A DNA stretch of 47,887 bases from Minisyncoccota bacterium (GTDB lineage: Bacteria > Patescibacteriota > Minisyncoccia > Phycocordibacterales > DATEUR01): assembly GCA_035583565.1 (NCBI GenBank), contig DATEUR010000005.1, positions 1 to 47,887 on the forward strand, written 5' to 3'. The notes under the pieces are model-generated. The model worked only from the letters and a program-made list of their open reading frames with translations. It did not search any database and was not told where the DNA came from. Position numbers and translations under genes: made by a program. Shown here piece after piece: positions 2,593 through 41,235 of the stretch (position 1 is the stretch's first letter; each line of letters begins with the position of its first letter).

Positions 2593-5500
2593 TTACTTTT
2601 CTTTAGTTTTCCGTTCTCGCTCCTCCTTTTTGAGCTCAACATCGAGAGCCAGGCCGCGGAGGTAATTTAGCATGACGCTAAATGATGCCGGCGCGCCCGG
2701 GGTTTTAAGCGGTTCGTTTTTAATAATCGAATCAAATGCCTGCGTCCGGCCAGTGATATCATCAGATTTAATCGTCAGCATCTCGCGAAGAGTATGAGCG
2801 GCGCCGTACCCTTCAAGCGCCCAGACTTCCATCTCGCCGAAACGCTGGCCTCCGCCTTGAGCTTTTCCGGAAAGCGGCTGTTGAGTGATCAAACTGTAAG
2901 GACCAATCGAGCGGGCGTGAATTTTATCTTCAACCATGTGGTGGAGTTTCAAAATATACATGTAACCAACCGCGATGCTCTGGGCGAAGATCTGCCCCGA
3001 ACGGCCATCGACCAGCGTAAGACGGCCATCTTTTGGTATGCCGGCTTTTTCAAGTTCGGCTTTAATTTCTTCAGTGGTCGCGCCCATAAACTGCGGCACA
3101 ATCGCTTGATAGCCGAGTTTTTTAGCCGCGAAACCGAGGTGCATTTCAAGAATTTGGCCGAGATTCATGCGACTTGGCACGCCAAGTGGCGTCAGCACGA
3201 TATCAATCGGCGTGCCATCGGCCAAAAACGGCATATCTTCAACCGGCAAAATTGTGGAAATGACCCCTTTGTTGCCGTGACGGCCGGAAAGTTTGTCACC
3301 AACCGAAATATTTCTGATTTGCGCCACTTCCACCACAATCTTTTTCAAAATGCCGGATTCAAGATTGTGACCGGCCTCGCGGGAGAATATTTTAATGCCA
3401 ACCACCCGGCCGCGTTTGCCGTGTTCCATCCGAAGAGAAGAATCTTTCACATCGCGGGCCTTTTCCGCAAAGATGGCGCGGAGCAGTCTTTCTTCCGGCG
3501 TTAGCTCGGTTTCGCCTTTAGGGGTTATTTTTCCGACTAAAATATCGTTTTCACTAACCTCCGCGCCGATGCGAACAACTCCCTCTTCATCAAGATTTTT
3601 AAGTTTGGCTTCACCGACATTTGGAATATCGCGAGTTGTTATTTCCGGGCCGAGTTTGGTTTCCCTGACTGTCGCCACAAACTCATCAATATGGATGCTA
3701 GTGAATCGGCTGTTTTCCACTAAGCGCTCGGAAATCACGATCGCGTCTTCGTAATTGGAGCCGTTCCAGGACATAAACGCCACCAAAATATTTTGACCTA
3801 AAGCTATTTGGCCGTTATCGGTTGAGGAAGCATCGGCCAAAATATCGCCTTTCTTCACTTTATCGCCGATATTAACGATCGGCCGCTGATGGAAAATACT
3901 CGGGCTGTTGTTTCTCGTAAAGGTGATGAGATCGTAAGTGGTATCGCCGTTTTTATCAGCTACCATAATCTTTTTGGCATCAACATACTTCACGGTCCCG
4001 CTGTCGCGAGCGACAATAAGGCGGCCGGAATAGCGAGCGGCCGATTCTTCAATACCGGTGGCGACAAGCGGCGCTTCAGGAAGCACGCAAGGGGTGGCTT
4101 GTTTCTGCATGTTCGATCCCATGAGCGCGCGATTAGCGTCGTCATGTTCAAGAAATGGAATCATTGAAGTCGCGATGGAAAAAGCTTGATTAGGCGCCAC
4201 GTCAATAAAATGAACGTCCTCTTTTTTGACCGTGCCGGGATGGCCGCCGACACGAGCTTCAACAAAATCGCCAGTGATTGTGTTTTTTTCATTATAAGGC
4301 GTGCCGGCGTGAGCAATGTTGTATTTTTCTTCTTCGAGCGCGTCAAGATAAATGATTTCACCGGTGAGCTTTCCTTTCTCCACTTTTATATAAGGCGTCT
4401 CGATAATGCCGAGATGATTAATCCGGGCGTAGACAGCAAGGTGTAAAATCAAACCGATGTTCTGACCTTCCGGCGTTTGAATCGGACAGACCCGGCCATA
4501 GTGCGAAGGATGCACGTCGCGCACTTCAAAACCAGCGCGCTCGCGCGAAAGACCACCCGGACCTAAGGCCGAAAGTTGACGCAAGTGCTCGATTTCATAA
4601 AGAACATTGTCCTGCGACATGAATTGCGATAATTGGTTGACGGTAAAAAATTCCGCGATCCGCGCCTGCAGAGGCCGTTGGTTGATAACATTAATCGGGA
4701 GCGTCGTGTTGATGTCGATGGTCGACATTCGGTCTTGAATATTTCGTTTGATTTGAGTCATACCGACCCGAATTCTCTGCTCGAGAAGCTCGCCGACATA
4801 GCGGGCACGGCGCTGGCCCAAATGGTCAATATCATCGGGGCCAATTTCCGGGTTTTTATTCAATTTAAAGATATTTTCGAGAATGGTAACAATATCGTCC
4901 GCAGTTAAGGTTCTTTTGGCCACTTCTTTGTTATCAAGACTCTTATTAAAGCGGCGATTAAAACGAAAGCGGCCAACCGAAGAAAGATCGTAACGCTCGG
5001 CGCTAAACAAGGCGTCCAAAAATTCCTTAGCGTGATCCGGCGGCGCCACTTCGCCGTCACGAAGACGCTTGTGAATTTCGACGTGCGCTTCGGCGACTGT
5101 TTGTTTTTCGTCGTGCGCGAGAACCTGTTTAATGTCCTCGCGATATTCTTTCGCGAAAGCGGAAATGATTTGATCATTTTTAGTTAGCCCCAGCACACGG
5201 AGAAGCGCGATTACGCCAAAACGGCGTTTCTTATCAATTTTGACGTAAACATTACCATCCGGATCGGATTGCATTTCAATCCAAACGCCGCGCGCCGGAA
5301 TAATCTTGGCGCCAAATAATGTTTTCCCTTTAATGTCTTCAGCCGTGAAAAAGGCGCCATAGCTTCGCGCCAGCTGCGGCACAATGACTCGCTCGACACC
5401 GTTGATGACAAAAGTGCCGTGATCGGTCATTAAAGGAAGATTAGTCAAAAAGATTTCTTGTTCCCGAGTGGTGTTTAAAGTTTTATTGTGAAGACGGGTC

Positions 5501-5763
5501 TTAATTTTAATTTGGCCATCGTAAGAAATCCAATTCTCTCTGGCGTAATGCTCGTTGTAACTAGGCCGGTCGAGGGTAAAAGACAAAAACTCGAGTTCAA
5601 ATTTTTTACCCGAGTAATCTTTGATGGAAGCGAATTCTTTTAAAATACTGCCGAAGCCGGTTTTTACCAAAGCTTCGAAGGAAGCGATTTGAGTTTCAAT
5701 TAAATTAGGGAAAGGGACGAGATTTGGTTTAAAACGCGAAAAATACTTTTTAGGCAAGATCAT
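2593..5763 (-). CDS. rpoB: DNA-directed RNA polymerase subunit beta
   Basis: 1056-aa ORF with hallmark beta-subunit blocks: LSALGPGGLSRERAGFEVRDVHPSHYGRVCPIQTPEGQNIGL, SGRHGNKGVIS and GGQRFGEMEVWALEGYGAAH. Confidence 0.97.
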   Translation of the reverse strand: MILPKKYFSRFKPNLVPFPNLIETQIASFEALVKTGFGSILKEFASIKDYSGKKFELEFLSFTLDRPSYNEHYARENWISYDGQIKIKTRLHNKTLNTTREQEIFLTNLPLMTDHGTFVINGVERVIVPQLARSYGAFFTAEDIKGKTLFGAKIIPARGVWIEMQSDPDGNVYVKIDKKRRFGVIALLRVLGLTKNDQIISAFAKEYREDIKQVLAHDEKQTVAEAHVEIHKRLRDGEVAPPDHAKEFLDALFSAERYDLSSVGRFRFNRRFNKSLDNKEVAKRTLTADDIVTILENIFKLNKNPEIGPDDIDHLGQRRARYVGELLEQRIRVGMTQIKRNIQDRMSTIDINTTLPINVINQRPLQARIAEFFTVNQLSQFMSQDNVLYEIEHLRQLSALGPGGLSRERAGFEVRDVHPSHYGRVCPIQTPEGQNIGLILHLAVYARINHLGIIETPYIKVEKGKLTGEIIYLDALEEEKYNIAHAGTPYNEKNTITGDFVEARVGGHPGTVKKEDVHFIDVAPNQAFSIATSMIPFLEHDDANRALMGSNMQKQATPCVLPEAPLVATGIEESAARYSGRLIVARDSGTVKYVDAKKIMVADKNGDTTYDLITFTRNNSPSIFHQRPIVNIGDKVKKGDILADASSTDNGQIALGQNILVAFMSWNGSNYEDAIVISERLVENSRFTSIHIDEFVATVRETKLGPEITTRDIPNVGEAKLKNLDEEGVVRIGAEVSENDILVGKITPKGETELTPEERLLRAIFAEKARDVKDSSLRMEHGKRGRVVGIKIFSREAGHNLESGILKKIVVEVAQIRNISVGDKLSGRHGNKGVISTILPVEDMPFLADGTPIDIVLTPLGVPSRMNLGQILEMHLGFAAKKLGYQAIVPQFMGATTEEIKAELEKAGIPKDGRLTLVDGRSGQIFAQSIAVGYMYILKLHHMVEDKIHARSIGPYSLITQQPLSGKAQGGGQRFGEMEVWALEGYGAAHTLREMLTIKSDDITGRTQAFDSIIKNEPLKTPGAPASFSVMLNYLRGLALDVELKKEERERKTKEK

Positions 5764-5788
5764 ATATAGATATAAAAATAAAAAAAAG

Positions 5789-5871
5789 AGGTTCTAAACC
5801 TTTTCTATTAAAAATCTCTATCCTTTAGGGAAAACAAAAAAAGACAAGGTTAAAAACACCGAAAAAACCTT
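5789..5871 (-). promoter_or_regulatory. rpoB leader with two weak terminator-like hairpins built from repeated AAGGUU/AACCUU segments
   Basis: On the minus strand, AAGGUU(5871-5866)...AACCUU(5851-5846) is followed by GUCUUUUUUUGUUUU. AGGUU-UAG-AACCU (5801-5789) is followed by U8, just before the rpoB ATG. Segments 2 and 3 are also mutually complementary. Confidence 0.35.
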
Positions 5872-5889
5872 AATAAATATTGGAAGTCA

Positions 5890-5918
5890 ATTATATAAAA
5901 ATACCACCCCCTTGTCAA
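5890..5918 (-). promoter_or_regulatory. Consensus sigma70-type promoter for rpoB-rpoC
   Basis: The minus strand reads TTGACA (5918-5913), a 17-nt spacer, then TATAAT (5895-5890). It lies ~125 nt upstream of the rpoB ATG. Confidence 0.65.
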
Positions 5919-5977
5919 GAACAAGCTGGGGATTCCAGGACAAGGCCTAATCTCTAAATAAACTATTTTGTAAATCG

Positions 5978-6062
5978 CCGAAAACATCTTTTCAGAAAGC
6001 CCGGATATTTGCTTGCTAGCAAATTCCTCCTGCTCGGCCCGTCGGCCTCCGCAAGTCTTTCC
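5978..6062 (-). ncRNA. Unclassified structured RNA motif, copy A (69-nt three-way junction plus 3' hairpin)
   Basis: Begins immediately after the trmD TGA. P1 GGAAAG/CUUUCU; P2 CUUGC/GCAGG enclosing P3 GGCC-GACG-GGCC; P4 AUUUGCU-AGCA-AGCAAAU; P5 CUGAAAA-GAUG-UUUUCGG. Aligns position-for-position with copy B (37671..37754), with compensatory changes in every helix. Confidence 0.55.
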
Positions 6063-6704
6063 TCAAAGACGTTTTCGGCTCTTTCTCCTCCATTCTTCAA
6101 TATTTCCATGGTGGCCGGTTAAAAGGACTTTGGGCGTCCGATATGTCTTTTTTCCCCATTTGAGGATTTCCGGCCGGGTATAAACTTCGGCCGAAGCAGT
6201 TCTCTTCTCCTCGATTGATTCTAATTTATGAAGCACGCCCGGTACCCGCCGCGCCACCGCGTCAACAAGAGCCATGGCCGGCACTTCCCCGCCCGAGAGA
6301 ACATAGTTGCCGATTGAAACTTCTTCAGCCTTTAAAATTTTTTTGACCCGCGCGTCAATCCCCTCATAACGACCACAGATAAGAATAATGTCTTTATGTT
6401 TTTTTTGGTAGATATCGGCAATTTTATTTGTAAACATTTTACCCCGTGGCGAAAAAACAATTATTTTTGGTTTTTTGGTTTTAATGCTTTTAACAGCTTT
6501 TAAAATCGGTTCGGCCTTCATCACCATTCCCGGGCCACCGCCATAAGGCCGCTCGTCAGTTGTCTTGTGGCGACCCTGCGCAAAGTCGCGAAGATTAATT
6601 ACTTTGACTTTGATGATTCCCTTTTTTATTGCTTGCGCCAAAACGCCGTGAGCCAAAAACCCCTCAAACATTTTCGGAAAAATAGTGATAATATGAAAAG
6701 TCAT
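6063..6704 (-). CDS. trmD: tRNA (guanine37-N1)-methyltransferase
   Basis: 213 aa. MTFHIITIFPKMFEGFL..., RPYGGGPGMVMK and CGRYEGIDARV are typical TrmD motifs. Confidence 0.93.
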   Translation of the reverse strand: MTFHIITIFPKMFEGFLAHGVLAQAIKKGIIKVKVINLRDFAQGRHKTTDERPYGGGPGMVMKAEPILKAVKSIKTKKPKIIVFSPRGKMFTNKIADIYQKKHKDIILICGRYEGIDARVKKILKAEEVSIGNYVLSGGEVPAMALVDAVARRVPGVLHKLESIEEKRTASAEVYTRPEILKWGKKTYRTPKVLLTGHHGNIEEWRRKSRKRL

Positions 6705-6804: not shown

Positions 6805-7122
6805 TTATTTCATGTCTTTCTTGATATCTTCCATTGCTTCATCAACGGAATGACTGGCTCGCGGCCTTGGCGCGGCACCTTCCGGTTCCAAGATCTTGAG
6901 ATTGACGCGAGCATTGCCTTTGAGGCCAATGACGCGAAGAAGCATACGGATCGCTTTGGCGGTATTACCAGCGCGACCGATGACTTTGCCCATGTCTTCC
7001 GGATTAAGGGAAAGGGTGAGCAAGACGCCCATTTCGTCAACGGTCCGATTGACTTTCACATCACCCGGGTGGTCGACAAGATTTTTAATAATGTATTCTA
7101 GAAATTCTGTCGGTTTATCCAT
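6805..7122 (-). CDS. KH-domain RNA-binding protein (UPF0109/YlqC-like)
   Basis: 105 aa with DMGKVIGRAGNTAKAIRMLL (GXXG KH motif). Precedes trmD, as in rpsP-KH-rimM-trmD operons. Confidence 0.85.
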   Translation of the reverse strand: MDKPTEFLEYIIKNLVDHPGDVKVNRTVDEMGVLLTLSLNPEDMGKVIGRAGNTAKAIRMLLRVIGLKGNARVNLKILEPEGAAPRPRASHSVDEAMEDIKKDMK

Positions 7123-10908: not shown

Positions 10909-12558
10909 TCACTGTTTGTAAAGAATAATGCTCTTCTTTGAAAACAAAGGTTTAAAATCAGTTAGAAAGGAATAAGAATAAGGATCGATATCTTTTATAT
11001 CCTGAAAATAAACAATATATTTGAAATCGGCTGGATCAGGGATAGGATCCAAGGATGGCAATTCCCCAAGCTCAATATTTTTGCTTGAAACGGCCTTGGG
11101 GCCAAAGAATACGCGACCTGGATTGCCTGTTATGAGATTATCGTTAAAACCAAGAGAAAAATAACCATGCCAAGGCAAAATAAGAATTTTGAAATCTTCT
11201 TTATCTTTTTCAATTATTTCTTTTGCTTCCTGCCATTCTTTTGGGTACCAGACGGATCGGAGCTGGCCCTGAAAGCCAAAAAGCATGGGGTAGGTGTAGA
11301 TCAAAGGTAAAGCAAAAACAACTGCCAGAATGTATTCTTTTTTAATTTTTTTTACTCTCTCCAAAATAAAATCAACCCCCAAAGGAATCAAATAAGCATA
11401 AATAAGAGCGATGGGGGCGACCCATTTGGCGCTATCTCGAAATCCTCGCCAAAAAGAAATATTTTCAAAAATCCAAAGATTGATAGATGAAAAAAAATCA
11501 CTCAAGCCAGTGGCAAAAACAAGGCTTAAACCGGCAAAACAAAATAAAATGAATCCCTGCCAACTGGAAAATGCCCCAAAAACAATAAGGACTAAAATTA
11601 AGAAAAGAAAAAACAGAAAAAATAATTTATTTTTCGGCCAAACAAAATTTTCCGCCCACGGCTCATCTTCGCCCCAATAACCGTATAAACTGAAAACATT
11701 GGTAAAAACTTTTAGTTTAGAATCACCGGCGGTTTGAAAAGTCTGCCAGTGAGCTTGATTAAAATTTTCAAAAACCGCTTGAGAGTTTTTGCTGACTAAG
11801 TAAGGTATTGTCCAATAACTGGAAAGAAAAAAGAAAACTAGGCCGGCTATAAAAGTTCTTAAAAGAATTTTTTTGAACAAAGACAAATTTTTTTGAAAAA
11901 GGACAACCACAATGCGACCAAACAAATAAATCGAGCTCAAAACGATCGCGATAGTAAGCATATGTAAAGAGAAAATACCAATGATGGTAAGGCAAAAAAC
12001 GAGTTTCAAAGGGATCAGGTACCTTTTTCGCGAGCCCTCAAGCCCAAGCCTCGCGAAAAAGGTACCTGATCCTTTTAACCCCTGGGGAAAGGTACCTGAC
12101 CCCTTAATTAAAAAATAAAGCACCGGCGGTAAAAGCGCATAACCGAAAAGAAAGAGCCAATGACCGGCCAAAAAACGCTCGTAAACAAATGGATTGATCG
12201 CGTAAAAGAGCGAGGTTAGATAATCCATTCCCCATTTTCTTTCAAAAAGGAAAAATTTAAACGGCAGATAAAAAAGCAAGAAAAACAAGGAAAAGAGGAT
12301 GGCTTTTTGAATAAGCCAAATCGGCAGAAAAATATCGGCAAACAAAAGAAGTTTCTCGAGGGGCAAGGCGTTTAAAAATTCTCCAGCGCTTTTGACAAAA
12401 TCAAATTCCGGCCCAAAAACCATATCTAAAGAAAACACATAGCCCGGTAAAAGCATTTGCCACAAAATAATAACTGCCCCAGCAACGGCAAAAATTATTC
12501 CGGAGTTCATGTTTTTTATATAATTAGATATTTTTTGAAGCATTTGATTTAAAGACAA
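10909..12558 (-). CDS. Large polytopic membrane protein, possible GT-C-type glycosyltransferase
   Basis: 549 aa with more than 10 predicted TM segments. Acidic first loop (SLDMVFGPEFDF) and a C-terminal soluble domain. The start is uncertain (alternative Met codons at 12543 and 12510). Function is inferred from context only. Confidence 0.5.
   Translation of the reverse strand: MSLNQMLQKISNYIKNMNSGIIFAVAGAVIILWQMLLPGYVFSLDMVFGPEFDFVKSAGEFLNALPLEKLLLFADIFLPIWLIQKAILFSLFFLLFYLPFKFFLFERKWGMDYLTSLFYAINPFVYERFLAGHWLFLFGYALLPPVLYFLIKGSGTFPQGLKGSGTFFARLGLEGSRKRYLIPLKLVFCLTIIGIFSLHMLTIAIVLSSIYLFGRIVVVLFQKNLSLFKKILLRTFIAGLVFFFLSSYWTIPYLVSKNSQAVFENFNQAHWQTFQTAGDSKLKVFTNVFSLYGYWGEDEPWAENFVWPKNKLFFLFFLFLILVLIVFGAFSSWQGFILFCFAGLSLVFATGLSDFFSSINLWIFENISFWRGFRDSAKWVAPIALIYAYLIPLGVDFILERVKKIKKEYILAVVFALPLIYTYPMLFGFQGQLRSVWYPKEWQEAKEIIEKDKEDFKILILPWHGYFSLGFNDNLITGNPGRVFFGPKAVSSKNIELGELPSLDPIPDPADFKYIVYFQDIKDIDPYSYSFLTDFKPLFSKKSIILYKQ
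12008..12105 (-). repeat. GC-rich palindromic insert lying in frame inside the CDS
   Basis: Perfect 23-bp inverted repeat ggatcaggtacctttttcgcgag (12012-12034) / ctcgcgaaaaaggtacctgatcc (12050-12072) with a 15-nt loop. A third partial arm gaaaggtacctgacccctt lies at 12087-12105. Encodes ...KGSGTFPQGLKGSGTFFARLGLEGSRKRYLIP... Confidence 0.8.
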
Positions 12559-12826
12559 TATCGGTTATGATTTTTTTGGCTTTTAATTTTGTTTTAATTT
12601 CCAATTTTTCTTTTATTTGACAATGCTTTTTATACTCAAAGACTTGCAAAATCGCAGCAAGAAAAAGAAGAGGAAAAGCGACAATTGAAAAGAAAGCGGC
12701 TGTTTTTTTACTCATAAATATGAAGATAAAACTGAAGAAAAAAAGAGCAGCCGAAATCAAAGCCAGAAATCGGCTGTTGAAAACATATTTGAGAATAATT
12801 GATTTCACTTGTTTAAGCTTTTTCAT
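12524..12826 (-). CDS. Small two-TM membrane protein
   Basis: 100 aa with two hydrophobic helices and a Lys-rich tail. Overlaps both neighbouring genes. Confidence 0.55.
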   Translation of the reverse strand: MKKLKQVKSIILKYVFNSRFLALISAALFFFSFIFIFMSKKTAAFFSIVAFPLLFLAAILQVFEYKKHCQIKEKLEIKTKLKAKKIITDIVFKSNASKNI

Positions 12827-14654
12827 TTTTCATTTTTCTCACGATAAAGGCCGAGAAAAAAAGAGCCAGCAAAGAAACAAGGAGCGCCAAGTAAAATAAT
12901 CTTTGCGGGAAATACTCCATCACAAGCTCCAGATCATATTTTCCATTTTCTTTCATTTCCAAGATTCCCTTCTCTTCCAAAATTTTCGGATCAATAATGA
13001 AGCCATTAGCATAACCATTTATCATAAAATGATCAGTCAGCCTCTTTTTTGAAAATCCATTTCTGGCGTAAAGCCGCCAATAATTGTCAAAAGATTCCAA
13101 AAAATTAAGCAAGAATGGCTCGTCAATATCGGTTATTTTAATTTTATATTTTGAAAAATTAATTTGTTTAACCTCATATTTGTTTTGATCGTCGTTAAAA
13201 AATTTTTCCGGGGCGAGAAAAATTCTTTCAGCCAGCGGCCAATTGAAAAGTTCGATTTTTATTCCCTTATATGAATTTTCCGTCAAATAATTCCCTTTGG
13301 AAAAAGAATAAAGATATATTCCGATGTTATTTTTTTTATCTTCAGGAACCTCAATCAATTTTTCAAATTTAGTCCAACCACTAGTGGTTTCCAGGTCTTC
13401 GCTATAAATTTCTTTGTTTAAACTTCCGTCGACTGATTTTGCCCAAATGGTGAATTTAGGATTATCGCCCGTTAGATGCTTGTATTCAAAACTCACTTTC
13501 ATCACGTTACCCTTGGTTTCAAACCATTTGTTATAGCAAACAAGCTCGTTCTTCGCTCTGAGTTTAAATTGGCCAGCCGATACTTGAGAAATTGTTTCTT
13601 GATCAGGCCGTGATTTATTGGTTCGGCAGAAATTTTGGGCAACATTCTCGTTTTCATCAAATAAGTAGATTGATGGATTTTCTAGATCGGAATATGAAAC
13701 ATCAATCGATCCTTCAAGATAAAATGGTCCGAACTTCTGAAATTTTCCGTCTTGTTTTTTACTGTCTTTTTTAAAAATATCTTCTTTCTCAGCAGTCAAA
13801 ACATTTATGTCGCGATAAAGATTTTCCGTCATGTAATTACCGGAAGAAGAAGAATAAAGATAAATCCCAATATTTTCCTCACCGCCTTCGGGAATATCAA
13901 ATAACTTTTCAAATTTATTCCAATCTTGTTTTGGTTTAAATTTTTCCGAATATATTTCTTGATTGATGGCTCCATCGGCTGATTTGCGCCAAAGAGTAAA
14001 TTTAGGATTATCGCCCGTTAGATGCTTGTATTCAAAACTCACTTTCATCACATTGCCTTTGCTTTCAAACCATTTGTTATAGCAAACAAGCTCGTTCTTC
14101 GCTCTGAGTTTAAATTGGCCAGCCGATACTTGAGAAATTGTTTCTTGATCAGGCCGTGATTTATTGGTTCGGCAAAGATTGGAAGGAAGGTTGTCAGTTC
14201 TGTCTTCCTCAAAAGCGACTGGTTGGAAGATGTCGCTAAGGCTTTCAAATTCTCTGGCTTTATTTTTAATCAGAAGACTATTATCTTTAACTGAAACATT
14301 AATATATGAATCAAAAGTATTATTAGGCGTGATCAAAAAATAATCAGCGGCTGGCAAATCAAGCCTTATTTTTCTTGATTCTCTTTTCGCCAAAAAATCA
14401 AGATTAAAAACGTTAAATAAATCGACTAGATTAAGGCCGTCTTTGAGGATATCTTTCTTAAAAACGAACGGCAGGTTTTGGCGGCCAATAAAAATGGCTT
14501 TTTTGGAAACATCCTCCAGTTTTTCAATTGGAATAGCGCCTTTGGAAATAAAAATTAAATCTTTCATATCCGCGCGCGCATAAGAAGCCACAAACAAAGC
14601 GCTAAATATAACTAATGACCATAAAATTTTTAGGTACTCCTTATTTGTCGACAT
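12813..14654 (-). CDS. Surface protein with a tandemly duplicated ~180-aa (CBM/beta-sandwich-like?) module and a C-terminal TM anchor
   Basis: 613 aa with an N-terminal signal anchor. Two copies of CRTNKSRPDQETISQVSAGQFKLRAKNELVCYNKWFE.KGNVMKVSFEYKHLTGDNPKF... The C-terminal TM LALLVSLLALFFSAFIV is followed by RKMKNEKA. Confidence 0.6.
   Translation of the reverse strand: MSTNKEYLKILWSLVIFSALFVASYARADMKDLIFISKGAIPIEKLEDVSKKAIFIGRQNLPFVFKKDILKDGLNLVDLFNVFNLDFLAKRESRKIRLDLPAADYFLITPNNTFDSYINVSVKDNSLLIKNKAREFESLSDIFQPVAFEEDRTDNLPSNLCRTNKSRPDQETISQVSAGQFKLRAKNELVCYNKWFESKGNVMKVSFEYKHLTGDNPKFTLWRKSADGAINQEIYSEKFKPKQDWNKFEKLFDIPEGGEENIGIYLYSSSSGNYMTENLYRDINVLTAEKEDIFKKDSKKQDGKFQKFGPFYLEGSIDVSYSDLENPSIYLFDENENVAQNFCRTNKSRPDQETISQVSAGQFKLRAKNELVCYNKWFETKGNVMKVSFEYKHLTGDNPKFTIWAKSVDGSLNKEIYSEDLETTSGWTKFEKLIEVPEDKKNNIGIYLYSFSKGNYLTENSYKGIKIELFNWPLAERIFLAPEKFFNDDQNKYEVKQINFSKYKIKITDIDEPFLLNFLESFDNYWRLYARNGFSKKRLTDHFMINGYANGFIIDPKILEEKGILEMKENGKYDLELVMEYFPQRLFYLALLVSLLALFFSAFIVRKMKNEKA
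13453..13628 (-). repeat. Intragenic direct repeat, copy 1 (176 bp)
   Basis: Matches 13999..14174 with 4 mismatches by hand count, including a ~111-bp perfect run. The offset is 546 bp (182 codons, in frame). Confidence 0.9.
13999..14174 (-). repeat. Intragenic direct repeat, copy 2 (176 bp)
   Basis: See copy 1. The flanking parts of the duplicated module are much more diverged. Confidence 0.9.
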
Positions 14655-20915: not shown

Positions 20916-21655
20916 GTAGATTTAAGGGGACAAGCATCATTTCTCTTAAGAAACGGTGCTTGTCCCCTTTTAATACCCTTTATCTGGATATAATGGCTGT
21001 GCCGCGGGTCAAACTTGCCAAAACAAGCCGGCAAGGGATAATAGCCCGCGCCGCGGATCTCGACTTTGGTGAATCCATGCGCTTCAAAAAATTCTTTCAG
21101 CCCGCGCCAATTAAAAACCGTCTTGTGAGTCCAGGACGGCGAGGCGCCGGGATCGCCGCGATGCAGGGCAAAAGGGTTGCCAAGGCCGGCTTTCTTGACG
21201 CTTAAATTAGAAAGAGAAAATATTTGCCAGCCGAAAAGGCTGGCAAAGATGTTGTGCCAGCTTGACGCATTTTCCGTTCCCATAACAACATAGCCGCCGG
21301 GACGCAAAACGCGAATCACTTCCGATAAAAAATTATCCAGAAAAGCAATATGTTCAATTATTTGATTGGCGTGAATGACATCGAATGAATTATCTTCAAA
21401 AGGAAAATTAGCATTTAAATCGGATATTTTTACTTTAATTCCTTTATCTTCCGCTTCCTTGGCGCTAGATTCCACTATCTCTATTCCGTAGATATTATTT
21501 GTTTTGATTTTATTGACTACCTTTACTGTCCACGTTCCGTCATCGCACCCCAAGTCAAGAATGTCGGCGTTCGGATCAACAACCAGCATATTTAAAATAT
21601 TTTGGTCGTTCAAAGCTCTGGCTTTGTTATGCATTTTTATAAAAAAATTTTTCAT
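20912..21655 (-). CDS. Class I SAM-dependent methyltransferase
   Basis: 247 aa with ILDLGCDDGTW and VIHANQIIEHI...LRPGGYVVMGTEN. ATGA overlaps at both ends. Confidence 0.85.
   Translation of the reverse strand: MKNFFIKMHNKARALNDQNILNMLVVDPNADILDLGCDDGTWTVKVVNKIKTNNIYGIEIVESSAKEAEDKGIKVKISDLNANFPFEDNSFDVIHANQIIEHIAFLDNFLSEVIRVLRPGGYVVMGTENASSWHNIFASLFGWQIFSLSNLSVKKAGLGNPFALHRGDPGASPSWTHKTVFNWRGLKEFFEAHGFTKVEIRGAGYYPLPACFGKFDPRHSHYIQIKGIKRGQAPFLKRNDACPLKST
20924..20969 (-). repeat. 13-bp perfect hairpin within the last 20 codons of the methyltransferase gene
   Basis: aaggggacaagca (20924-20936) / tgcttgtcccctt (20957-20969). Encodes ...KRGQAPFLKRNDACPLKST, immediately before the ATGA junction with the next gene. 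Confidence 0.7.
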
Positions 21656-22762: not shown

Positions 22763-23725
22763 TTAATCATTAAAATTAAGCTTATCTTTGATAACATAAA
22801 TCGGCCGATTGCCGACTTCTTGGTAAATATTGCCTATATATAAAGCAATAAGACCAAGACAAATCAAAATTAGACCCACTAAAAATAGAATCACTAAAAT
22901 CAAAAGCCCCAGATTGGAAAAATAAAGCCCCCACGGATCGCCAAAAATATATTTTTCCATTACCACAAACAAGCCTACTAAAGTTGAAGCGGAAACGATA
23001 AAAAAACCAGTGTAACCGGCTAATTTCAAAGGAAATAAACTATGGGTAGTAAAAGAAGATGCGGCCAAACGAAAAAGTTTTCTTAAAGAGTAACCGGCTT
23101 TGCCGCTTGTCCGCGCCGGTGCTTCAAAATAAACATGGGTCGTTTTAAAACCAAGCCAATCCAAAAGACCTCGCGTAATTCTGTTTCTTTCCGTAAAGCG
23201 GTTAAATTCTTTGATAACTTTTTCGTCAATCAGCCGAAAATCAGTCGCGCCAGAAACTAGCGGCGTTTCGCCAATGCGCTTCATAAGCCAGTAAAAAATT
23301 TTCGAGCCTGCTTTTTTGACAAAACCTTCACCATTATTTTTCTTCCTGACACCAATGACAATTTCGGCGCCTTCCTGCCAATGCTTTATGAACTCCGGAA
23401 TAATTTTCGGCGGATGTTGAAGATCGGCATCTAGGACAATCACCGCCACTCCCCGCGCGTGGTGAAGCCCAGCCGAAGTAGCGCTCTCTTTGCCGAAATT
23501 TCGGGAAAATTCCAAAGAGCGGATATTTCTGTCCGCTTGAGTAAGTTTAGAGATAGCTTTCGCGCTGCCGTCCCGACTGCCGTCATTAATAAAAATCATT
23601 TCATAATTAAATTTATCTTCCAGCTTTTTCCAAACCCGGCAAAGCTCTTCATAAAGAAGAGGAATGTTGTTTTCTTCGTTAAAAACAGGAATGACGATCG
23701 AGATTGTTTTAACATTTGAAGGCAT
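22763..23725 (-). CDS. Polyprenol-phosphate glycosyltransferase (GT2, GtrB/ArnC/DPM1-like)
   Basis: 320 aa. ISIVIPVFNEENNI...IFINDGSRDGS...LDADLQHPP plus two C-terminal TM helices. Confidence 0.85.
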   Translation of the reverse strand: MPSNVKTISIVIPVFNEENNIPLLYEELCRVWKKLEDKFNYEMIFINDGSRDGSAKAISKLTQADRNIRSLEFSRNFGKESATSAGLHHARGVAVIVLDADLQHPPKIIPEFIKHWQEGAEIVIGVRKKNNGEGFVKKAGSKIFYWLMKRIGETPLVSGATDFRLIDEKVIKEFNRFTERNRITRGLLDWLGFKTTHVYFEAPARTSGKAGYSLRKLFRLAASSFTTHSLFPLKLAGYTGFFIVSASTLVGLFVVMEKYIFGDPWGLYFSNLGLLILVILFLVGLILICLGLIALYIGNIYQEVGNRPIYVIKDKLNFND

Positions 23726-24965
23726 ACTTTGGTTTTAAAACAAACAAATAATTCAAAAACATTGATCCGGTTAAAAAAAGTGACGACCAAAAAAGGGCTT
23801 TAACAAAAGCTTCTATATTTTGATGAGCGAGAGCGATAAAGATAATCTGAAAAATTATCGCGGCCAGAAAAAAACCGGCAAAAATCTTTCTGTTTGTTGC
23901 CACAAAAAAATGAACTAGGGCAATAGCCATGGCGATCATTCCCATCGAGGCGCCAAAAAGGGGCAGGAACGGAGCAATCGCCAGATATTTTGCGCCAAAA
24001 AAGATTTTGACAGTTAATTGAGGAAAAAAAGAAAAGAATAGAACAACCAAAAACGAAATTAAAAAAATAACAGGAAGTGAACGACTGATAATTTTGTGTT
24101 CCCTGCCGGAATTTTGAGTTTTTGCTTCTGCGACCAGCGGAAACATTACGGCCACAAAAGCGCTTGTGCCATAAAGAAGAATTTTGCCGATCGTTGAGAG
24201 GGCGGCATACTCACCGGCGGCGCTCGGGGAGAGATAATGTTTGGCCAAAATAACATCTATGTTGGATAAGATGGCGAGAAGTAAATTAACAAATAAAATG
24301 AAAACAAAATCACGAGCTAAAGGCCGCAAATTGAGACTCTTGTCATTTTCTTTTTGTAAAGACGGCTTAATCTGACGAAGAGTGTAAAAATAAGAAATAA
24401 GGTAAGAAAAAAACAAAGCCAGCATCACGCCCGGCACAAGAAAACCGAAAAGAACAAAAACAACAGCCAAAATCAGTTTAGAAGCGGCGGTAATTACCCC
24501 TTGCAAAGAATAAGAAAAAAAATTCTTAAGGCCCTGAAGAACGCCGATACTAACTGAGGAAACGAATGAAATCGGAATAATCAAACTGAAAATAAAAAGA
24601 ATAATCGGTTCAATATTCAAAAATACCGACAATCGGGGTATAAAAAACCAAAAGATCGCGACCAGGCCAAGCCCGCTTATAAGAGCGATTTTTGTCAAAA
24701 GGCGAAATAATGATTTAGAGGCAAAACCGGAAGCGGGCACATGTTTAGACACAAACATGGTCAGGGCAGTTGCCGGAACACCGAAAATAATAAGGAGACC
24801 AAATAAGGTCACAATCTCTCCAAATTTACCCGGCCCCAAAAGTCGGCCCATGATGAGAGCAAAGACATAATTTACACCGCTGGCCACTAAAGCCCCGGCC
24901 ATAACCAAGAAACTCCATTTTTCGTAGTAATTTTCCCGAAACCATTGACAAAACTTTGAAAGCAT
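23709..24965 (-). CDS. Oligosaccharide/polysaccharide flippase (Wzx/MOP family)
   Basis: 418 aa with ~12 TM segments. The N-terminus ...NYVFALIMGRLLGPGKFGEI is typical of polysaccharide biosynthesis (MOP) proteins. Confidence 0.75.
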   Translation of the reverse strand: MLSKFCQWFRENYYEKWSFLVMAGALVASGVNYVFALIMGRLLGPGKFGEIVTLFGLLIIFGVPATALTMFVSKHVPASGFASKSLFRLLTKIALISGLGLVAIFWFFIPRLSVFLNIEPIILFIFSLIIPISFVSSVSIGVLQGLKNFFSYSLQGVITAASKLILAVVFVLFGFLVPGVMLALFFSYLISYFYTLRQIKPSLQKENDKSLNLRPLARDFVFILFVNLLLAILSNIDVILAKHYLSPSAAGEYAALSTIGKILLYGTSAFVAVMFPLVAEAKTQNSGREHKIISRSLPVIFLISFLVVLFFSFFPQLTVKIFFGAKYLAIAPFLPLFGASMGMIAMAIALVHFFVATNRKIFAGFFLAAIIFQIIFIALAHQNIEAFVKALFWSSLFLTGSMFLNYLFVLKPKYAFKC

Positions 24966-25000
24966 AATTTAATAAAGCCTCTTTTACAAAGCCTTATCAA

Positions 25001-25067
25001 TCGCCTGAACGGGGCCGACACGTGATTACGTTATTGGTTTTTGCGTCCCCCGGCCCCGTTTAGACGA
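25001..25067 (-). promoter_or_regulatory. Long leader hairpin upstream of the flippase/glycosylation operon
   Basis: 17-bp stem, 25067-25051 with 25017-25001, having one A-C mismatch and one G-U that pairs only on the minus strand. The loop is 33 nt. Lies ~35 nt upstream of the wzx ATG. Confidence 0.45.
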
Positions 25068-25150
25068 CTGATAAAAAAGGAGACTCAAAAAAGAGAATCA
25101 AAAAAAACGCCCCCCCTCGTAATCGTGGTTGAGACGCAAAAGTTACTTTA

Positions 25151-36948: not shown

Positions 36949-36950
36949 AA

Positions 36951-37643
36951 TTATCGCCAATGATTGAGTTCGATCGCCCGAAGAGCCGCCGCCGTTTCCG
37001 CTTCTTGTTTGGATCGGCCCTGCCCTTCGGCGACAAGCGTCTCGCCAAAATAAATCCCGGAGATGAAAATTTTGTTGTGATCAGGTCCTGATTCCCGAAG
37101 CACTTTGTAAGCCGGTGTGACCCCGAAATGCTCTTGTGCCATTTCCTGGACAAAACTCTTTGGATCGCGCCAGAGGCCTTTGGTCACCACATCATCGAGG
37201 CGCGGCAAAACAAACTCTGTGACAAATTTTTCGGCCACCGTATAACCACTATCAAGGTGAATGGCGCCAATGAGCGATTCAACCGTATTAGCCAGAATAT
37301 ATTGCCGCGCTTTGCCGATATCTTTGGTCTCACCGCGGGAAAGAAGCAAAAATTCACTAAAGCCGAGTTCTTTGCCAACTTCCGAAAGCACGATGGCGTT
37401 GACAACGCCGGCCCGATAAGCCGTCAATTCACCCTCTTGTTTATCAGGGTATTTTTTATATAAAAAATCGGTGACGATAAGCTCGAGGACGGCGTCTCCT
37501 AAAAACTCAAGCCGTTCATTATGAGCCAGTCGAAAACCGGGATTTTCATTAAGATAAGACCGGTGAACAAAGGCCTGAAGCAGGAGGTCTTTGTTTTTGA
37601 AGCTAATGCCAATTTTTGACTCTAATTTTTTTAAATCCGCCAT
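36951..37643 (-). CDS. rnc: Ribonuclease III
   Basis: MADLKKLESKIGISFKNKDLLLQAFVHRSY...NERLEFLGDAVLELIV (RNase III signature) plus a C-terminal dsRBD (...GRSKQEAETAAA). The start is set at ATG 37643; the track's GTG 37694 lies inside the RNA motif. Confidence 0.92.
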   Translation of the reverse strand: MADLKKLESKIGISFKNKDLLLQAFVHRSYLNENPGFRLAHNERLEFLGDAVLELIVTDFLYKKYPDKQEGELTAYRAGVVNAIVLSEVGKELGFSEFLLLSRGETKDIGKARQYILANTVESLIGAIHLDSGYTVAEKFVTEFVLPRLDDVVTKGLWRDPKSFVQEMAQEHFGVTPAYKVLRESGPDHNKIFISGIYFGETLVAEGQGRSKQEAETAAALRAIELNHWR

Positions 37644-37670
37644 TTTTTTTAGAATTACGGAAATAATAGC

Positions 37671-37754
37671 GGCAAAACACGTTTCGCCGGGCACGAATAT
37701 TTGCCTACTGGCAAATTTCTCCCGCTCAGGCCGTCGCCCTCCGCGAGTCCCGGC
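37671..37754 (-). ncRNA. Unclassified structured RNA motif, copy B (69-nt three-way junction plus 3' hairpin)
   Basis: P1 GCCGGG/CCCGGC; P2 CUCGC/GCGGG enclosing P3 GGGC-GACG-GCCU; P4 AUUUGCC-AGUA-GGCAAAU; P5 GGCGAAA-CGUG-UUUUGCC. Lies 28 nt upstream of the rnc ATG. Covaries with copy A at 5978..6062. Confidence 0.55.
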
Positions 37755-37801
37755 TCAACATATTTTGCCGCTTTATGTAGAAACATATTTTCGTAATTAA
37801 T

Positions 37802-38704
37802 TTAACCGGTAATAATTTTTATACCTTTCATGATAATCGGCAAAATGTCGTCATAAATTTTAAGATCAGCAATCTCGTCGAAGGTAAACCATCTCGCGTT
37901 ATCAAGACCTCCGCTTGAGGCCAATTTTAATTCAGCAAGAGGTGTTTCCGCTAAGAAATACATTACCCGTTTGCGAATTTTTCCTTTTTCCGGATGATTA
38001 GCCACGTATTCGTTTTCTCCGAGTTTTTCCCGGATCATAATCTCAAGGCCGAGTTCTTTCTTGATCTCGCGCGCGGTGCAGGCTTCTTCGGTCGGACAAT
38101 CGGAAGTTTCCTCAATGCCGCCTTTAGAGAGCGTCCAGTAGCCGAAGATGTCGTGGACAAGCGCCAATTTTATTTCCTTGCCGTTCCTCGCAAAAATCAC
38201 CGCGCCGCCAAGCTTCTCCACCGGCAATTTGGAGAAATCAACCGGCTCTTTCTTTTTGCTCATTTGTTCTTTGCCCGGTTCGCCGATTTCCCGGTAAACA
38301 GCGCCGAGAACGCCGTTTATGAATTTGCCGCTGTTTTCACCACCAAAATTTTTAGCCAGCTCAATCGCTTCATTAATCGCCACTTTCGGCGGGACCTGGG
38401 TCCGATCGCCAAACAATAGCTCCGCCAACCCTAAACGAAGAACATTCCGATCAACAGCCGAGATTTTTTCAAGCGGCCATTCCGGCGCCGCTTTAGTGAT
38501 AATTTGATCAATAACTTCTTTATTTTTGATGACAAGACCAATAAGGTCGCGGATGAATTTGGAGCTTTCTTCTTCAAGGCCCGGCGCGAATTCTTTTTCA
38601 TTGCGGGCAATTATTGGTTCAATATCGCTTTGTTTAAGCGCGCGGAAATCCCACTCGAAGAGGGTTTGCAGCACAATTGACCTTGCAAGATGACGAGTTG
38701 CCAT
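37802..38704 (-). CDS. nusB: NusB antitermination factor fused to a C-terminal Nudix-like domain
   Basis: Residues 1-~140 are NusB-like (MATRHLARSIVLQTLFEWDF..., DRNVLRLGLAELLF, INEAIELAK). Residues ~165-300 are Nudix-like (GGAVIF...WTLSKGGIEE...AREIKKELGLEI), with a degenerate Nudix box. Confidence 0.75.
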   Translation of the reverse strand: MATRHLARSIVLQTLFEWDFRALKQSDIEPIIARNEKEFAPGLEEESSKFIRDLIGLVIKNKEVIDQIITKAAPEWPLEKISAVDRNVLRLGLAELLFGDRTQVPPKVAINEAIELAKNFGGENSGKFINGVLGAVYREIGEPGKEQMSKKKEPVDFSKLPVEKLGGAVIFARNGKEIKLALVHDIFGYWTLSKGGIEETSDCPTEEACTAREIKKELGLEIMIREKLGENEYVANHPEKGKIRKRVMYFLAETPLAELKLASSGGLDNARWFTFDEIADLKIYDDILPIIMKGIKIITG

Positions 38705-38740: not shown

Positions 38741-38974
38741 TTACTTTGTTGTTTTAGCGCTCTTTTTCTCCTTTTCTTTGCCTTTTTCTTTTTTGCCAAC
38801 CGGACTGATTTCAAGCACTTTTCGGCCACGGTAGTAGCCGCAGGTTTTGCAAACGGTGTGCGGCATGTTTTTAGCGCTGCAATTGGCACATGTTGAAAGA
38901 AAGGCCGCCTTAAGAGCATGGTGGCTCCGGCGGTTTCGGGTATGAGCTCGGGTATGTCGCATTCTGACTACCAT
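38741..38974 (-). CDS. rpmF: 50S ribosomal protein L32 (zinc-ribbon form) with a Lys-rich tail
   Basis: MVVRMRHTRAHTRNRRSHHALK...CANCSAKNMPHTVCKTCGYYRGRKV. Confidence 0.9.
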   Translation of the reverse strand: MVVRMRHTRAHTRNRRSHHALKAAFLSTCANCSAKNMPHTVCKTCGYYRGRKVLEISPVGKKEKGKEKEKKSAKTTK

Positions 38975-39763: not shown

Positions 39764-39772
39764 TTCGGTATG

Positions 39773-39824
39773 TTATTGGTTGATTTTGAAAAACAAGTTT
39801 GACTTCTTGCAGTTTACATTAAAA
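39773..39824. repeat. 52-nt leader/promoter repeat, copy 1
   Basis: ttattggttgattttgaaaaacaagtttgacttcttgcagtttacattaaaa, identical to 41184..41235. Confidence 0.95.
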
Positions 39825-41172: not shown

Positions 41173-41183
41173 TAACTGTAATA

Positions 41184-41235
41184 TTATTGGTTGATTTTGA
41201 AAAACAAGTTTGACTTCTTGCAGTTTACATTAAAA
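41184..41235. repeat. 52-nt leader/promoter repeat, copy 2
   Basis: Identical to 39773..39824. Lies in the divergent spacer between the M23 lipoprotein gene and thrS. Confidence 0.95.

What the first reader, a model, noticed from the sequence alone, without database searches (positions are those of the whole stretch)
5978..6062. Copy A of the structured RNA abuts the trmD stop codon upstream of rpoB; the two copy locations mirror known RNase III target sites
Copy A starts on the nucleotide after the trmD TGA (6063-6065). It ends ~60 nt upstream of a perfect TTGACA-17-TATAAT rpoB promoter. Copy B sits in the 5' leader of rnc itself.

In E. coli, RNase III autoregulates by cleaving a structure in its own leader, and it also processes the spacer just upstream of rpoB (established knowledge). 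Finding one shared fold at the two analogous places here suggests a lineage-specific RNase III processing or autoregulation element. A riboswitch-like or 3'-end-stabilising role is equally possible.

Neighbouring genes are also RNA-centred: nusB::nudix, the KH protein and trmD.
Basis: partly seen in the sequence, partly recalled or inferred. Interest (0 to 1): 0.7.

Follow-up and report, generated by a model that had tools for sequence, protein, structure and literature searches.

The report
Dispersed three-way-junction RNA element
The two "copies" are real members of an uncatalogued ~105-nt folded RNA module that is scattered, in either orientation, at gene boundaries in a few Paceibacteria (CPR) genomes. 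It recurs just upstream of the rpoB promoter, but it is not a dedicated RNase III (rnc) control element.

Summary
Both copies exist on the minus strand. They are longer than reported: A is 6079-5977 and B is 37771-37669. A 15-16 bp outer helix was missed, and in copy A its 5' strand is the last 15 nt of trmD, including the TGA.

Both fold identically, with z-scores of -7.3 and -8.6:
- a closing helix of about 21 bp;
- a three-way junction;
- P2, with a GGA/GA internal loop and a GACG loop;
- P3, with a bulged A.

Eight further homologues came from groundwater metagenomes. Across 10 sequences, 94% of cells pair and 32 of 40 pairs show double-sided changes. Rfam has no match.

The contexts are scattered:
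- upstream of the rpoB promoter (4 loci);
- upstream of rnc (the window only), pilM and alaS;
- antisense after groEL and after the RNR small-subunit gene;
- antisense inside a dnaK leader.

Close relatives of the window lack the element at both sites, and five relatives lack it at rnc.

My best reading is a discrete, sporadically spreading structured module at transcription-unit boundaries. Its two-turn helix probably acts as a processing or 3'-end hairpin, plausibly cut by RNase III. The conserved cap serves an unknown partner.

The rnc-autoregulation idea is not supported. The rpoB association is real but unexplained.

The parts
5974..6080 (-). Element copy A (full model match). The paired part is 6079-5977.
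   Evidence: Model match of 121.6 bits. MFE fold -54.9 kcal/mol, z -7.3.
6065..6079 (-). Copy A outer helix P1a, 5' strand. This is the last 15 nt of the trmD reading frame. The trmD stop UGA is 6065-6063.
Evidence: Fold, ORF 6063-6704 and Pfam tRNA_m1G_MT.
5977..5991 (-). Copy A outer helix P1a, 3' strand.
   Evidence: Fold.
6000..6056 (-). Copy A conserved three-way-junction core. It comprises J1/2 A; P2 (5 bp, GGA/GA internal loop, 4 bp, GACG loop); J2/3 A; P3 (3 bp, bulged A, 7 bp); and J3/1 GGG.
   Evidence: Fold. Conservation and covariation in alignments A4 and A8.
37666..37772 (-). Element copy B (full model match). The paired part is 37771-37669.
   Evidence: Model match of 123 bits. 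MFE fold -63.0 kcal/mol, z -8.6.
37692..37748 (-). Copy B conserved three-way-junction core.
5890..5918 (-). rpoB promoter TTGACA-17-TATAAT. It lies 55 nt downstream of copy A, so copy A is outside the transcript this promoter makes.
   Evidence: 12 of 12 matches.
37641..37643 (-). rnc start codon (ATG), 25 nt after the end of copy B's closing helix.
   Evidence: Pfam RNase III domains on 36951-37643. Relatives' Rnc proteins are also 230-232 aa.
37802..37804 (-). Stop codon of nusB::NUDIX, 30 nt before copy B.

Best explanation
SHOWN
- The element (E) is a discrete module of about 105 nt that folds as a single strand.
- The fold is a long closing helix (16-27 bp, about 21-22 bp in the window) capped by a small three-way junction whose core sequence is strongly conserved.
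- E belongs to a family absent from Rfam.
- The family is multi-copy: 2 copies in this 48-kb window and 2 in 13 kb of L140.
- It is patchily distributed among deep-branching Paceibacteria. It always lies between genes, in either orientation, usually hard against a stop codon, a promoter or a start codon.

INFERRED
- E spreads or is retained as a unit at transcription-unit boundaries.
- In the window both copies are sense to the flanking genes, so they are transcribed as the tail of the KH-trmD message (A) and as an intercistronic piece of L32-nusB-rnc-smc (B).
- There the two-turn closing helix most likely works as a double-stranded RNA processing or 3'-end-forming hairpin.
- That hairpin would be an RNase III substrate and/or a barrier that separates the upstream message from what follows. 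At copy A it would insulate the strong rpoB promoter from read-through.
- The conserved junction cap is what selection keeps. It is either the binding site for an unknown partner (a protein that directs cleavage, or the machinery that copies the element) or the part released as a small stable RNA.
- E is not a regulator dedicated to rnc.
For: Structure:
- Both window copies give identical folds with z of -7.3 and -8.6.
- In 8 sequences, 96.5% of cells pair and 30 of 40 pairs change on both sides. In 10 sequences the figures are 94.3% and 32 of 40. In both sets 0 of 500 shuffles reach the observed values, and sliding the partner strand drops pairing to 38-52%.
- Two divergent members that were not selected by the search pattern keep the same fold: L158 and L140:6863-6960.
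- The orthologues L142 and L158 differ by compensatory changes in P1, P2b and P3.

Strand:
- There are 21 G-U cells and 0 A-C cells.
- The forward strand folds 6-17 kcal/mol better than its complement.

Discrete unit:
- Copy B and the L144 element match closely (every difference is a substitution) over exactly the element, while their flanks are unrelated.

Patchy and multi-copy:
- E is absent at both window sites in relatives with RpoB 81-89% identical.
- It is absent after groEL in an 85%-identical relative, where a plain hairpin followed by a T-run (terminator-like) sits instead.
- It is absent in L159, whose TrmD is 94% identical to that of L142.
- It is present in lineages whose RpoB is only 50-63% identical to the window's.

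Boundary positions:
- The stop codon lies inside E (window A, L140a) or 2-10 nt from it (L141, L143).
- E ends 22-55 nt upstream of the rpoB -35 hexamer in four loci.
- E ends 25-45 nt before the start codons of rnc, pilM and alaS.
- Plain long hairpins occupy equivalent spots in genomes without E.

RNase III is encoded in these genomes.
Against: - No transcript data were available. Cleavage, termination and even transcription of E are untested.
- A U-run follows the helix in only some copies, so E is not a uniform intrinsic terminator.
- rnc, pilM and alaS start 25-45 nt after E with no promoter in between. Transcription must therefore read through E at those loci.
- A simple hairpin role does not explain why a 57-nt cap is so conserved.
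- It also does not explain why the same strand stays the better folder in the three loci where only the complementary strand lies in an evident mRNA.
- The sample is small: 10 loci from about 8 lineages. Most were found with a pattern that fixed part of P2, so P2 conservation is partly ascertainment.
Confidence: 0.45

Rival explanations
1. Selfish non-autonomous mobile element (MITE-, REPIN- or PATE-like). E is copied through a single-stranded DNA or RNA intermediate by an enzyme encoded elsewhere. The conserved junction is that enzyme's recognition structure. Any effects on host transcripts are by-products.
For: - E shows presence/absence differences between close relatives at three separate sites.
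- Near-identical E copies sit in unrelated flanks.
- E is multi-copy, occurs in both orientations and is strictly intergenic.
- Copies within one genome share P3 sequence: A with B, and L140a with L140b.
- The strand-specific fold is kept even where the host mRNA carries the complement.
- In E-forward orientation the GC skew is positive in 5 of 7 loci, but this signal is weak.
Against: - The helix arms, which would be the terminal inverted repeats, are not conserved in sequence between copies.
- There are no consistent target-site duplications. Only L142 has a flanking ACGGAG repeat.
- No transposase or reverse transcriptase is encoded in the 48-kb window, and none appears among the genes annotated next to E in the other loci.
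- There were no hits in viral, plasmid or phage collections.
- The orthologous copies L142 and L158 have kept the fold through compensatory changes in place, which dead transposon copies would not do.
- Four loci at one and the same spot (upstream of the rpoB promoter) would need a strong target preference.
Confidence: 0.25
2. One reading: a lineage-specific RNase III autoregulation and processing element, placed in the rnc leader and in the spacer before rpoB by analogy with E. coli.
For: - The closing helix of about 21-22 bp is RNase III-sized.
- One copy sits 25 nt before rnc.
- E recurs before rpoB in L142, L158 and L140.
Against: - No E occurs at rnc in five related lineages.
- E is absent before rpoB in L003, L006, L008, L149-L152 and L159.
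- E also occurs at pilM, alaS, groEL, RNR/rnpB and dnaK, three of these antisense.
- At rpoB it lies upstream of the promoter, not in the rpoB message.
Confidence: 0.08
3. A trans-acting small RNA, ribonucleoprotein scaffold or new self-cleaving ribozyme. The closing helix only presents or excises the conserved cap, and the cap is the functional molecule.
For: - The junction and internal-loop nucleotides are highly conserved while all stems covary. This pattern, together with the scattered, orientation-free, multi-copy distribution, resembles hammerhead and twister ribozymes (established knowledge).
- The G-U/G-C step next to the junction is invariant in 9 of the 10 aligned sequences; the tenth has a gap at those columns.
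- There is no Rfam match.
Against: - No promoter of its own is conserved. Flank homology stops at the helix ends.
- No promoter-like site for the forward strand was found where scanned: L147 has five such sites on the opposite strand, leading into dnaK, and one beyond E; L141 has none on either strand.
- The element is easily lost between close relatives.
- There is no known catalytic core signature.
Confidence: 0.12
4. An ordinary intrinsic terminator, possibly bidirectional, or an mRNA-stabilising hairpin with no further meaning.
For: - E sits where a plain hairpin followed by a T-run (terminator-like) sits in a relative, after groEL in L156.
- Plain hairpins occupy the same pre-rpoB position in L152.
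- In L141 the complement of E is followed by UUUUCUUUCUU, and L140a is followed by a U5 run.
Against: - A terminator needs no conserved 57-nt three-way junction with covarying arms.
- Many copies lack a U-run.
- rnc, pilM and alaS must be read through E.
Confidence: 0.07
5. A riboswitch or other ligand-sensing leader.
For: It has a three-way-junction architecture with conserved junction nucleotides.
Against: - The closing helix is about 21 bp and very stable, so there is no alternative pairing or expression platform.
- The neighbouring genes are unrelated and both orientations occur.
- Four loci place E upstream of a promoter.
Confidence: 0.02

Closest known systems
Correia repeat-enclosed elements (CREE/NEMIS) of Neisseria (PMC2649163)
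   Same: - Both are modules of about 100-150 nt with an inverted repeat around a conserved core.
- Both are dispersed between genes in either orientation.
- Both differ in presence between close relatives.
- Both are co-transcribed with neighbours. In CREE the repeat arms form a hairpin that RNase III can bind and cut, and the element changes expression of adjacent genes.
   Different: - In CREE the inverted repeats are conserved in sequence. There is a TA target duplication, hundreds of copies per genome, an IHF site and promoter-forming ends.
- In E the arms are free in sequence and only pairing is kept.
- In E the conserved part is a folded three-way junction with covarying stems.
- E shows no duplication and few copies.
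REP/BIME and REPIN elements mobilised by RAYT transposases; ERIC, BOX and RUP repeats (own knowledge)
   Same: - Both are short extragenic palindromic repeats that form hairpins in mRNA.
- Both sit after stop codons or between cistrons.
- Both affect mRNA stability, termination or translation.
- Recognition is strand-specific and single-stranded (REP/RAYT).
   Different: - Those families are defined by a conserved stem sequence (for example the GTAG of REP) and are very numerous.
- E conserves the apical junction, not the stem.
- No RAYT gene was seen in the DNA examined.
E. coli rnc leader (rncO) and the rplL-rpoB spacer RNase III site
   Same: - Long double-stranded stems lie in transcripts next to rnc and rpoB.
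- An RNase III gene is adjacent.
   Different: - The two E. coli sites share no common fold.
- Both lie inside the regulated transcript.
- They are conserved with the gene.
- E is absent from rnc in relatives, lies upstream of the rpoB promoter, and occurs at unrelated genes.
Intervening sequences (IVS) of 23S/16S rRNA excised by RNase III (own knowledge)
   Same: - Both are sporadically distributed stem-loop insertions of about 100 nt.
- In both, a long stem is the processing site.
- Both are present or absent between close relatives.
   Different: - IVS lie in rRNA helices and their apical parts are not conserved folded junctions.
- E lies between protein genes.
Scattered self-cleaving ribozymes (hammerhead, twister, twister-sister) (own knowledge; Rfam)
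   Same: - Both have a small multi-stem junction with invariant junction and loop nucleotides and freely covarying stems.
- Both show a patchy, multi-copy distribution that is independent of context.
   Different: - E has no match to any Rfam ribozyme model, even at E <= 10.
- Its junction strands are only 1, 1 and 3 nt long.
- Cleavage is untested.

Membership tests
Any Rfam 15 family | Score at or above the family gathering threshold, or a consistent sub-threshold match. | tested here: not met
   There were 0 matches in the window. In 5850-6200 the only hit was a noise hit at E=5. The six homologue loci gave only RNase P RNA and tRNAs elsewhere.
Conserved structured RNA (generic) | Base pairs are supported by compensatory changes beyond controls. 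| tested here: met
   30 of 40 and 32 of 40 pairs change on both sides. 96.5% and 94.3% of cells pair. 0 of 500 shuffles reach the observed values. Slid controls pair at 38-52%.
RNase III autoregulatory leader of rnc (rncO-like) | The element is conserved in the rnc 5' region across relatives. | tested here: not met
   The nusB-rnc spacers are 24-83 nt and have no model match in L003, L149, L150, L152 and L158.
RNase III autoregulatory leader of rnc (rncO-like) | A double-stranded stem of about two helical turns. | tested here: met
   P1 is 15+6 bp in copy A and 16+6 bp in copy B. Across the family it is 16-27 bp.
RNase III autoregulatory leader of rnc (rncO-like) | Cleavage by RNase III that lowers rnc mRNA. 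| not testable with these tools
   This needs an enzyme assay or RNA-end mapping.
TIR-type MITE (Correia/CREE-like) | The terminal inverted repeats are conserved in sequence among copies. | tested here: not met
   The P1 arms differ almost completely between copies, and only pairing is kept. 19 of 21 P1 pairs change on both sides.
TIR-type MITE (Correia/CREE-like) | A target-site duplication flanks each copy. | tested here: not met
   The flanks of 9 copies were compared. Only L142 has a flanking ACGGAG repeat, and there is no common duplication.
TIR-type MITE (Correia/CREE-like) | The element is dispersed, occurs in both orientations, and differs in presence between close relatives. | tested here: met
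REP/REPIN | A conserved REP stem sequence and a cognate RAYT gene in the genome. | tested here: inconclusive
   The stem sequence is not conserved. No HUH or RAYT gene was seen in the window or loci, but whole genomes were not available.
Intrinsic terminator | A GC-rich hairpin immediately followed by a U-run. | tested here: inconclusive
   A U-run follows in L144 and L140a, and follows the complement in L141. It is weak or absent in window A, window B, L142, L143 and L140b.
Riboswitch | A 5'-UTR position before functionally related genes, with a switchable P1 or expression platform. | tested here: not met
   The neighbouring genes are unrelated, three loci are antisense, and four loci lie upstream of a promoter. 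P1 is about 21 bp.
Integron attC site | R''/R' boxes (RYYYAAC...GTTRRRY) at the base of the stem, within cassette arrays. | tested here: not met
   The stem bases are GCCGAAAAC.../GCGGCAAAA... and so on, and vary between copies. There is no cassette array and no integrase.

The most novel reading that the evidence does not exclude
E is a new class of autonomous functional RNA in CPR bacteria. Its conserved 57-nt three-way junction could be catalytic (a new self-cleaving ribozyme that punctuates transcripts). Alternatively it could be the handle of an undescribed copying or targeting machinery that places it preferentially just upstream of the rpoB promoter and next to other core housekeeping genes.
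Probability: 0.12. Interest if true: 0.85.

Novelty: new variant of a known kind. Interest (0 to 1): 0.55.

Why it matters
CPR/Patescibacteria have tiny genomes with very little non-coding DNA and almost no characterised RNA biology.

This is a covariation-supported RNA fold that is missing from Rfam. It is kept on one strand whatever the direction of neighbouring genes. It comes and goes between close relatives. It turns up four times at the same spot in front of the rpoB promoter, in lineages as distant as 50% RpoB identity.

That makes it a concrete handle on two questions: how these organisms delimit or process transcripts, and how small repeats spread in reduced genomes. If the cap proves catalytic or proves to be a protein handle, it would be a new RNA class.

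For this finding specifically, the attractive parallel with the E. coli RNase III sites is mostly coincidence.

Tried and rejected
- **Genome-collection scan.** The pattern required part of the P3 sequence and gave only 2 chance hits.
- **Viral collection.** The P3 pattern and the main pattern gave 0 hits.
- **Plasmid and phage BLAST.** Nothing relevant was found.
- **Literature.** Two keyword searches found nothing describing this element, and a sequence-string search found nothing.
- **Chance hits in the metagenome scan.** L139 and L145 matched the pattern but have no fold.
- **A third 'copy' in the window.** The model matches at 12009-12075, 20921-20972 and 24991-25075 are plain long hairpins without the core.
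- **Insertion into pre-existing host hairpins.** I considered this as an explanation for P1 variability and rejected it. The conserved UGAG.../...GAA internal loop lies outside the variable inner helix, P3 inside the core covaries too, and copy B and L144 share P1.
- **Other identities considered from sequence and architecture and rejected.** These were 5S rRNA, SRP RNA, tRNA-like RNA, a K-turn, a hammerhead, a C/D box RNA and an S15-type mimic. None gave an Rfam match, the bulge or junction sizes are wrong, and E is multi-copy and dispensable.
- **Its own promoter.** The 'TTACGAA..ATATGTT' similarity upstream of B and L144 lies at different distances, and the flanks do not align.
- **Orientation relative to replication.** The GC-skew test was not decisive.

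Full report
**Setting**

The window is a contig of a Candidatus Paceibacterota (CPR/Patescibacteria) bacterium; the source's name for the identical TrmD says so. Nearly all genes lie on the minus strand. Pfam confirms the following genes:
- trmD at 6063-6704
- rpoB at 2593-5763
- a KhpA-type KH protein at 6805-7122
- rnc at 36951-37643
- a nusB::NUDIX fusion at 37802-38704
- L32 at 38741-38974
- smc at 34792-36960

rpoC follows rpoB and runs off the left end of the window.

**Observation**

A degenerate 26-nt core pattern occurs exactly twice, at 6027-6052 and 37719-37744 on the minus strand. None is expected in shuffles.

On the minus strand both regions give the same minimum-free-energy structure. 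The energies are -54.9 and -63.0 kcal/mol, with z-scores of -7.3 and -8.6, and 0 of 200 shuffles fold as well. The plus strand is 15-17 kcal/mol weaker. The fold has these parts:
- an outer helix P1a of 15-16 bp;
- a GA/GA internal loop;
- an inner helix P1b of 6 bp;
- a three-way junction with single-A linkers;
- P2: 5 bp, a GGA/GA internal loop, 4 bp and a GACG loop;
- P3: 3 bp, a bulged A, 7 bp and a 4-nt loop;
- a 3-nt J3/1.

The two copies differ completely in P1b (GGAAAG/CUUUCU against GCCGGG/CCCGGC) and in much of P1a, with perfect compensation. The core is nearly identical.

The true extents are 6080-5974 and 37772-37666. In copy A that strand is the last 15 nt of trmD. The UGA stop (6065-6063) is the last P1a base plus the GA loop.

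The perfect TTGACA-17-TATAAT at 5918..5890 is confirmed. It lies downstream of the element. Copy B ends 25 nt before the rnc ATG, and no promoter-like site separates it from nusB.

**No known family**

Rfam 15 gives nothing at gathering thresholds. Around copy A at E <= 10 it gives only a noise hit. ARAGORN finds nothing. BLAST against plasmids and phages, and scans of viral contigs, are negative. A literature string search is negative.

**Homologues**

A covariance model from the two copies (R1) was combined with one metagenome pattern scan. Together they recovered six distinct further elements: L144 (= L146), L141, L147, L143, L142 and L140 (= L148). L140 also carries a weaker second copy 2.5 kb away from the first. 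Two of the ten pattern hits were chance matches.

Later look-ups added L153-L155, which are strain variants of L143. They also added a diverged orthologue of the L142 element in L158, at 45.8 bits.

*Covariation.* On the 8-sequence alignment, 96.5% of cells pair and 30 of 40 pairs change on both sides. With the two divergent members included, the figures are 94.3% and 32 of 40. In both cases 0 of 500 shuffles reach the observed values, and sliding the partner strand drops pairing to 38-52%. The scan pattern fixed part of P2, so P2 conservation is partly ascertainment. P1 and P3 were not fixed, and they carry most of the covariation.

*Divergent members.* L158 and L140:6863-6960 were not selected by the pattern, yet they fold into the same three-way junction.

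*Strand.* There are 21 G-U cells and no A-C cell. The forward strand is the better folder in every tested copy.

**Contexts**

Sense to the neighbouring genes:
- Window A: trmD (stop inside E), then E, then 55 nt, then the rpoB promoter.
- L142: trmD, 41 nt, E, 31 nt, then TTGACG-17-TAGGAT and rpoB.
- L158: a cupin gene, then E, then 22 nt, then TTGACT-17-TATACT and rpoB.
- L140a: gtrA (stop inside E), then E, then 24 nt, then TTGACA-18-TATAAT and rpoB.
- Window B: nusB::NUDIX, then E, then 25 nt, then rnc.
- L144: a divergent comF-like gene on one side, and pilM 45 nt downstream of E.
- L140b: mnmA, then E, then about 40 nt to the likely alaS ATG (the longest alaS reading frame overlaps E).

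Antisense to the neighbouring genes:
- L141: E lies 2 nt beyond the stop of the RNR small-subunit gene. It is 28 nt from, and divergent to, the RNase P RNA gene.
- L143 and L153-L155 (Kaiserbacteria): E lies 10 nt beyond the groEL stop.
- L147: E lies between a TTGCAA-17-TATAAT promoter and the dnaK ATG, which is 16 nt away. The dnaK leader therefore carries the complement of E.

**Presence and absence**

Relatives whose RpoB is 81-89% identical to the window's (L003, L006, L008) have the rpoB promoter directly after the trmD stop. Where the contig reaches that region (L003), the nusB-rnc spacer is only 24 nt. None has a model match.

Four more lineages at 67% identity (L149-L152) also lack E. 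Filter-free searches there find only plain hairpins.

After groEL, an 85%-identical relative (L156) has a plain hairpin followed by a T-run (terminator-like) where L143 has E.

L159 has a TrmD 94% identical to that of L142, yet it lacks E and 41 nt of left flank. The more distant L158 (85%) keeps an orthologous copy. That copy shares P1 sequence with L142 and shows compensatory changes in P1, P2b and P3.

E-bearing lineages are far apart. RpoB is 63% identical between the window and L142, and 50% between the window and L140.

Copy B and the L144 element match closely (every difference is a substitution) over exactly the element, and their flanks do not align. Copies within one genome share P3 sequence: A with B, and L140a with L140b. 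All ten contigs of the window's own species carry an identical copy A.

**Interpretation**

E is a real, discrete, strand-specific folded module that is gained or lost as a unit. It is not a control element dedicated to rnc, because the rnc position is unique to this species.

The rpoB association is real. Four of ten loci, representing three independent placements, lie 22-55 nt upstream of the rpoB -35 hexamer. By a rough estimate of my own, assuming about 700 intergenic regions per genome (a round figure, not computed with a tool), chance would give this about 1 time in 10^6-10^7. But E lies outside the rpoB transcript, at the end of the upstream unit.

Equivalent positions in other genomes hold plain long hairpins, such as L152, or a terminator-like hairpin, as in L156.

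I therefore favour a transcription-unit-boundary hairpin. Its helix of about two turns would be cut (RNase III is the obvious candidate) or would block read-through. At copy A this would insulate the rpoB promoter. At copy B it would separate nusB from rnc-smc.

What the conserved cap does is not shown. The cap, the strand asymmetry at the antisense loci and the patchy distribution together fit an element with a life of its own. That could be a mobile element with a single-stranded intermediate, or an excised functional RNA. I keep both as rivals.

The compensatory evolution between the orthologous L142 and L158 copies argues that at least the sense copies are under selection in place.

**Limits**

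- No transcript data were available.
- There are only ten loci.
- Whole genomes of E-bearing organisms were not available. Copy number per genome and any co-occurring enzyme are therefore unknown.

Noticed in passing
window 12009-12075 (both strands): A 24-bp perfect inverted repeat with a 15-nt loop lies inside ORF 10909-12558 (549 aa, no Pfam match). A half-copy (TCAGGTACCTTT) lies just upstream at about 12085-12110. It matches only the closing-helix part of the element model.
   Followed up: partly
window 24991-25075 and about 25100-25125 (minus strand): A long (about 25 bp) hairpin with a 30-nt loop lies in the 229-nt spacer before the Polysacc_synt gene (23709-24965). It is preceded by a G-run/T8 terminator-like site. 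Another plain hairpin lies at 20921-20972, at an ORF junction.
   Followed up: partly
window 5927-5932; L003, L006, L008, L140, L142, L152, L158, L159 just upstream of the rpoB -35 hexamer: A TCCACA box (TCCCCA in the window) sits 7-20 nt upstream of the rpoB -35 hexamer in nearly every lineage examined. It is a candidate upstream promoter element or regulator site.
   Followed up: no
window 5764-5889 (minus strand); L142:2045-2221, L158:10233-10409, L159:735-918: The rpoB 5' UTR is long (about 125-190 nt) and contains hairpins followed by U-runs, which looks attenuator-like. In L142, L158 and L159 the leader is highly conserved in sequence.
   Followed up: no
window 39770-39824 and 41181-41235: A 55-nt repeat, 98% identical, lies directly upstream of two neighbouring paralogous secreted proteins: 39056-39763, and 39907-41172 (the latter with an M23 peptidase domain).
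   Followed up: no
window 13340-13634 and 13886-14180: A 295-nt tandem duplication, 85% identical, lies inside the 613-aa ORF 12813-14654, which has a weak carbohydrate-binding-domain hit.
   Followed up: no
window 7229-34663: About 28 kb of glycosyltransferase, methyltransferase, polysaccharide-export, Cu-ATPase/HMA and unknown genes lies between smc and KH-trmD. The relative L003 has only about 4 kb there (EamA, PGA_cap/VanY, S16). S16 is not next to KH in the window.
   Followed up: partly
window 37802-38704; L003:2123-3034; L150:1668-2558; L152:2037-2936: The nusB::NUDIX fusion is conserved across several Paceibacteria lineages. So is the order L32-nusB::NUDIX-rnc-smc.
   Followed up: partly
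L152:10947-10995 and 11186-11241: Two copies of a different 20-bp perfect hairpin (ACCCAGCACTCAAC...) lie in the 650-nt trmD-rpoB spacer. One lies immediately before the TCCACA box and promoter. This is a second kind of repeated hairpin at the same genomic position.
   Followed up: partly
L141:7108-7477 (minus strand): A bacterial RNase P RNA gene (class A, 114 bits) starts 28 nt from the 5' end of the element, in divergent orientation.
   Followed up: partly
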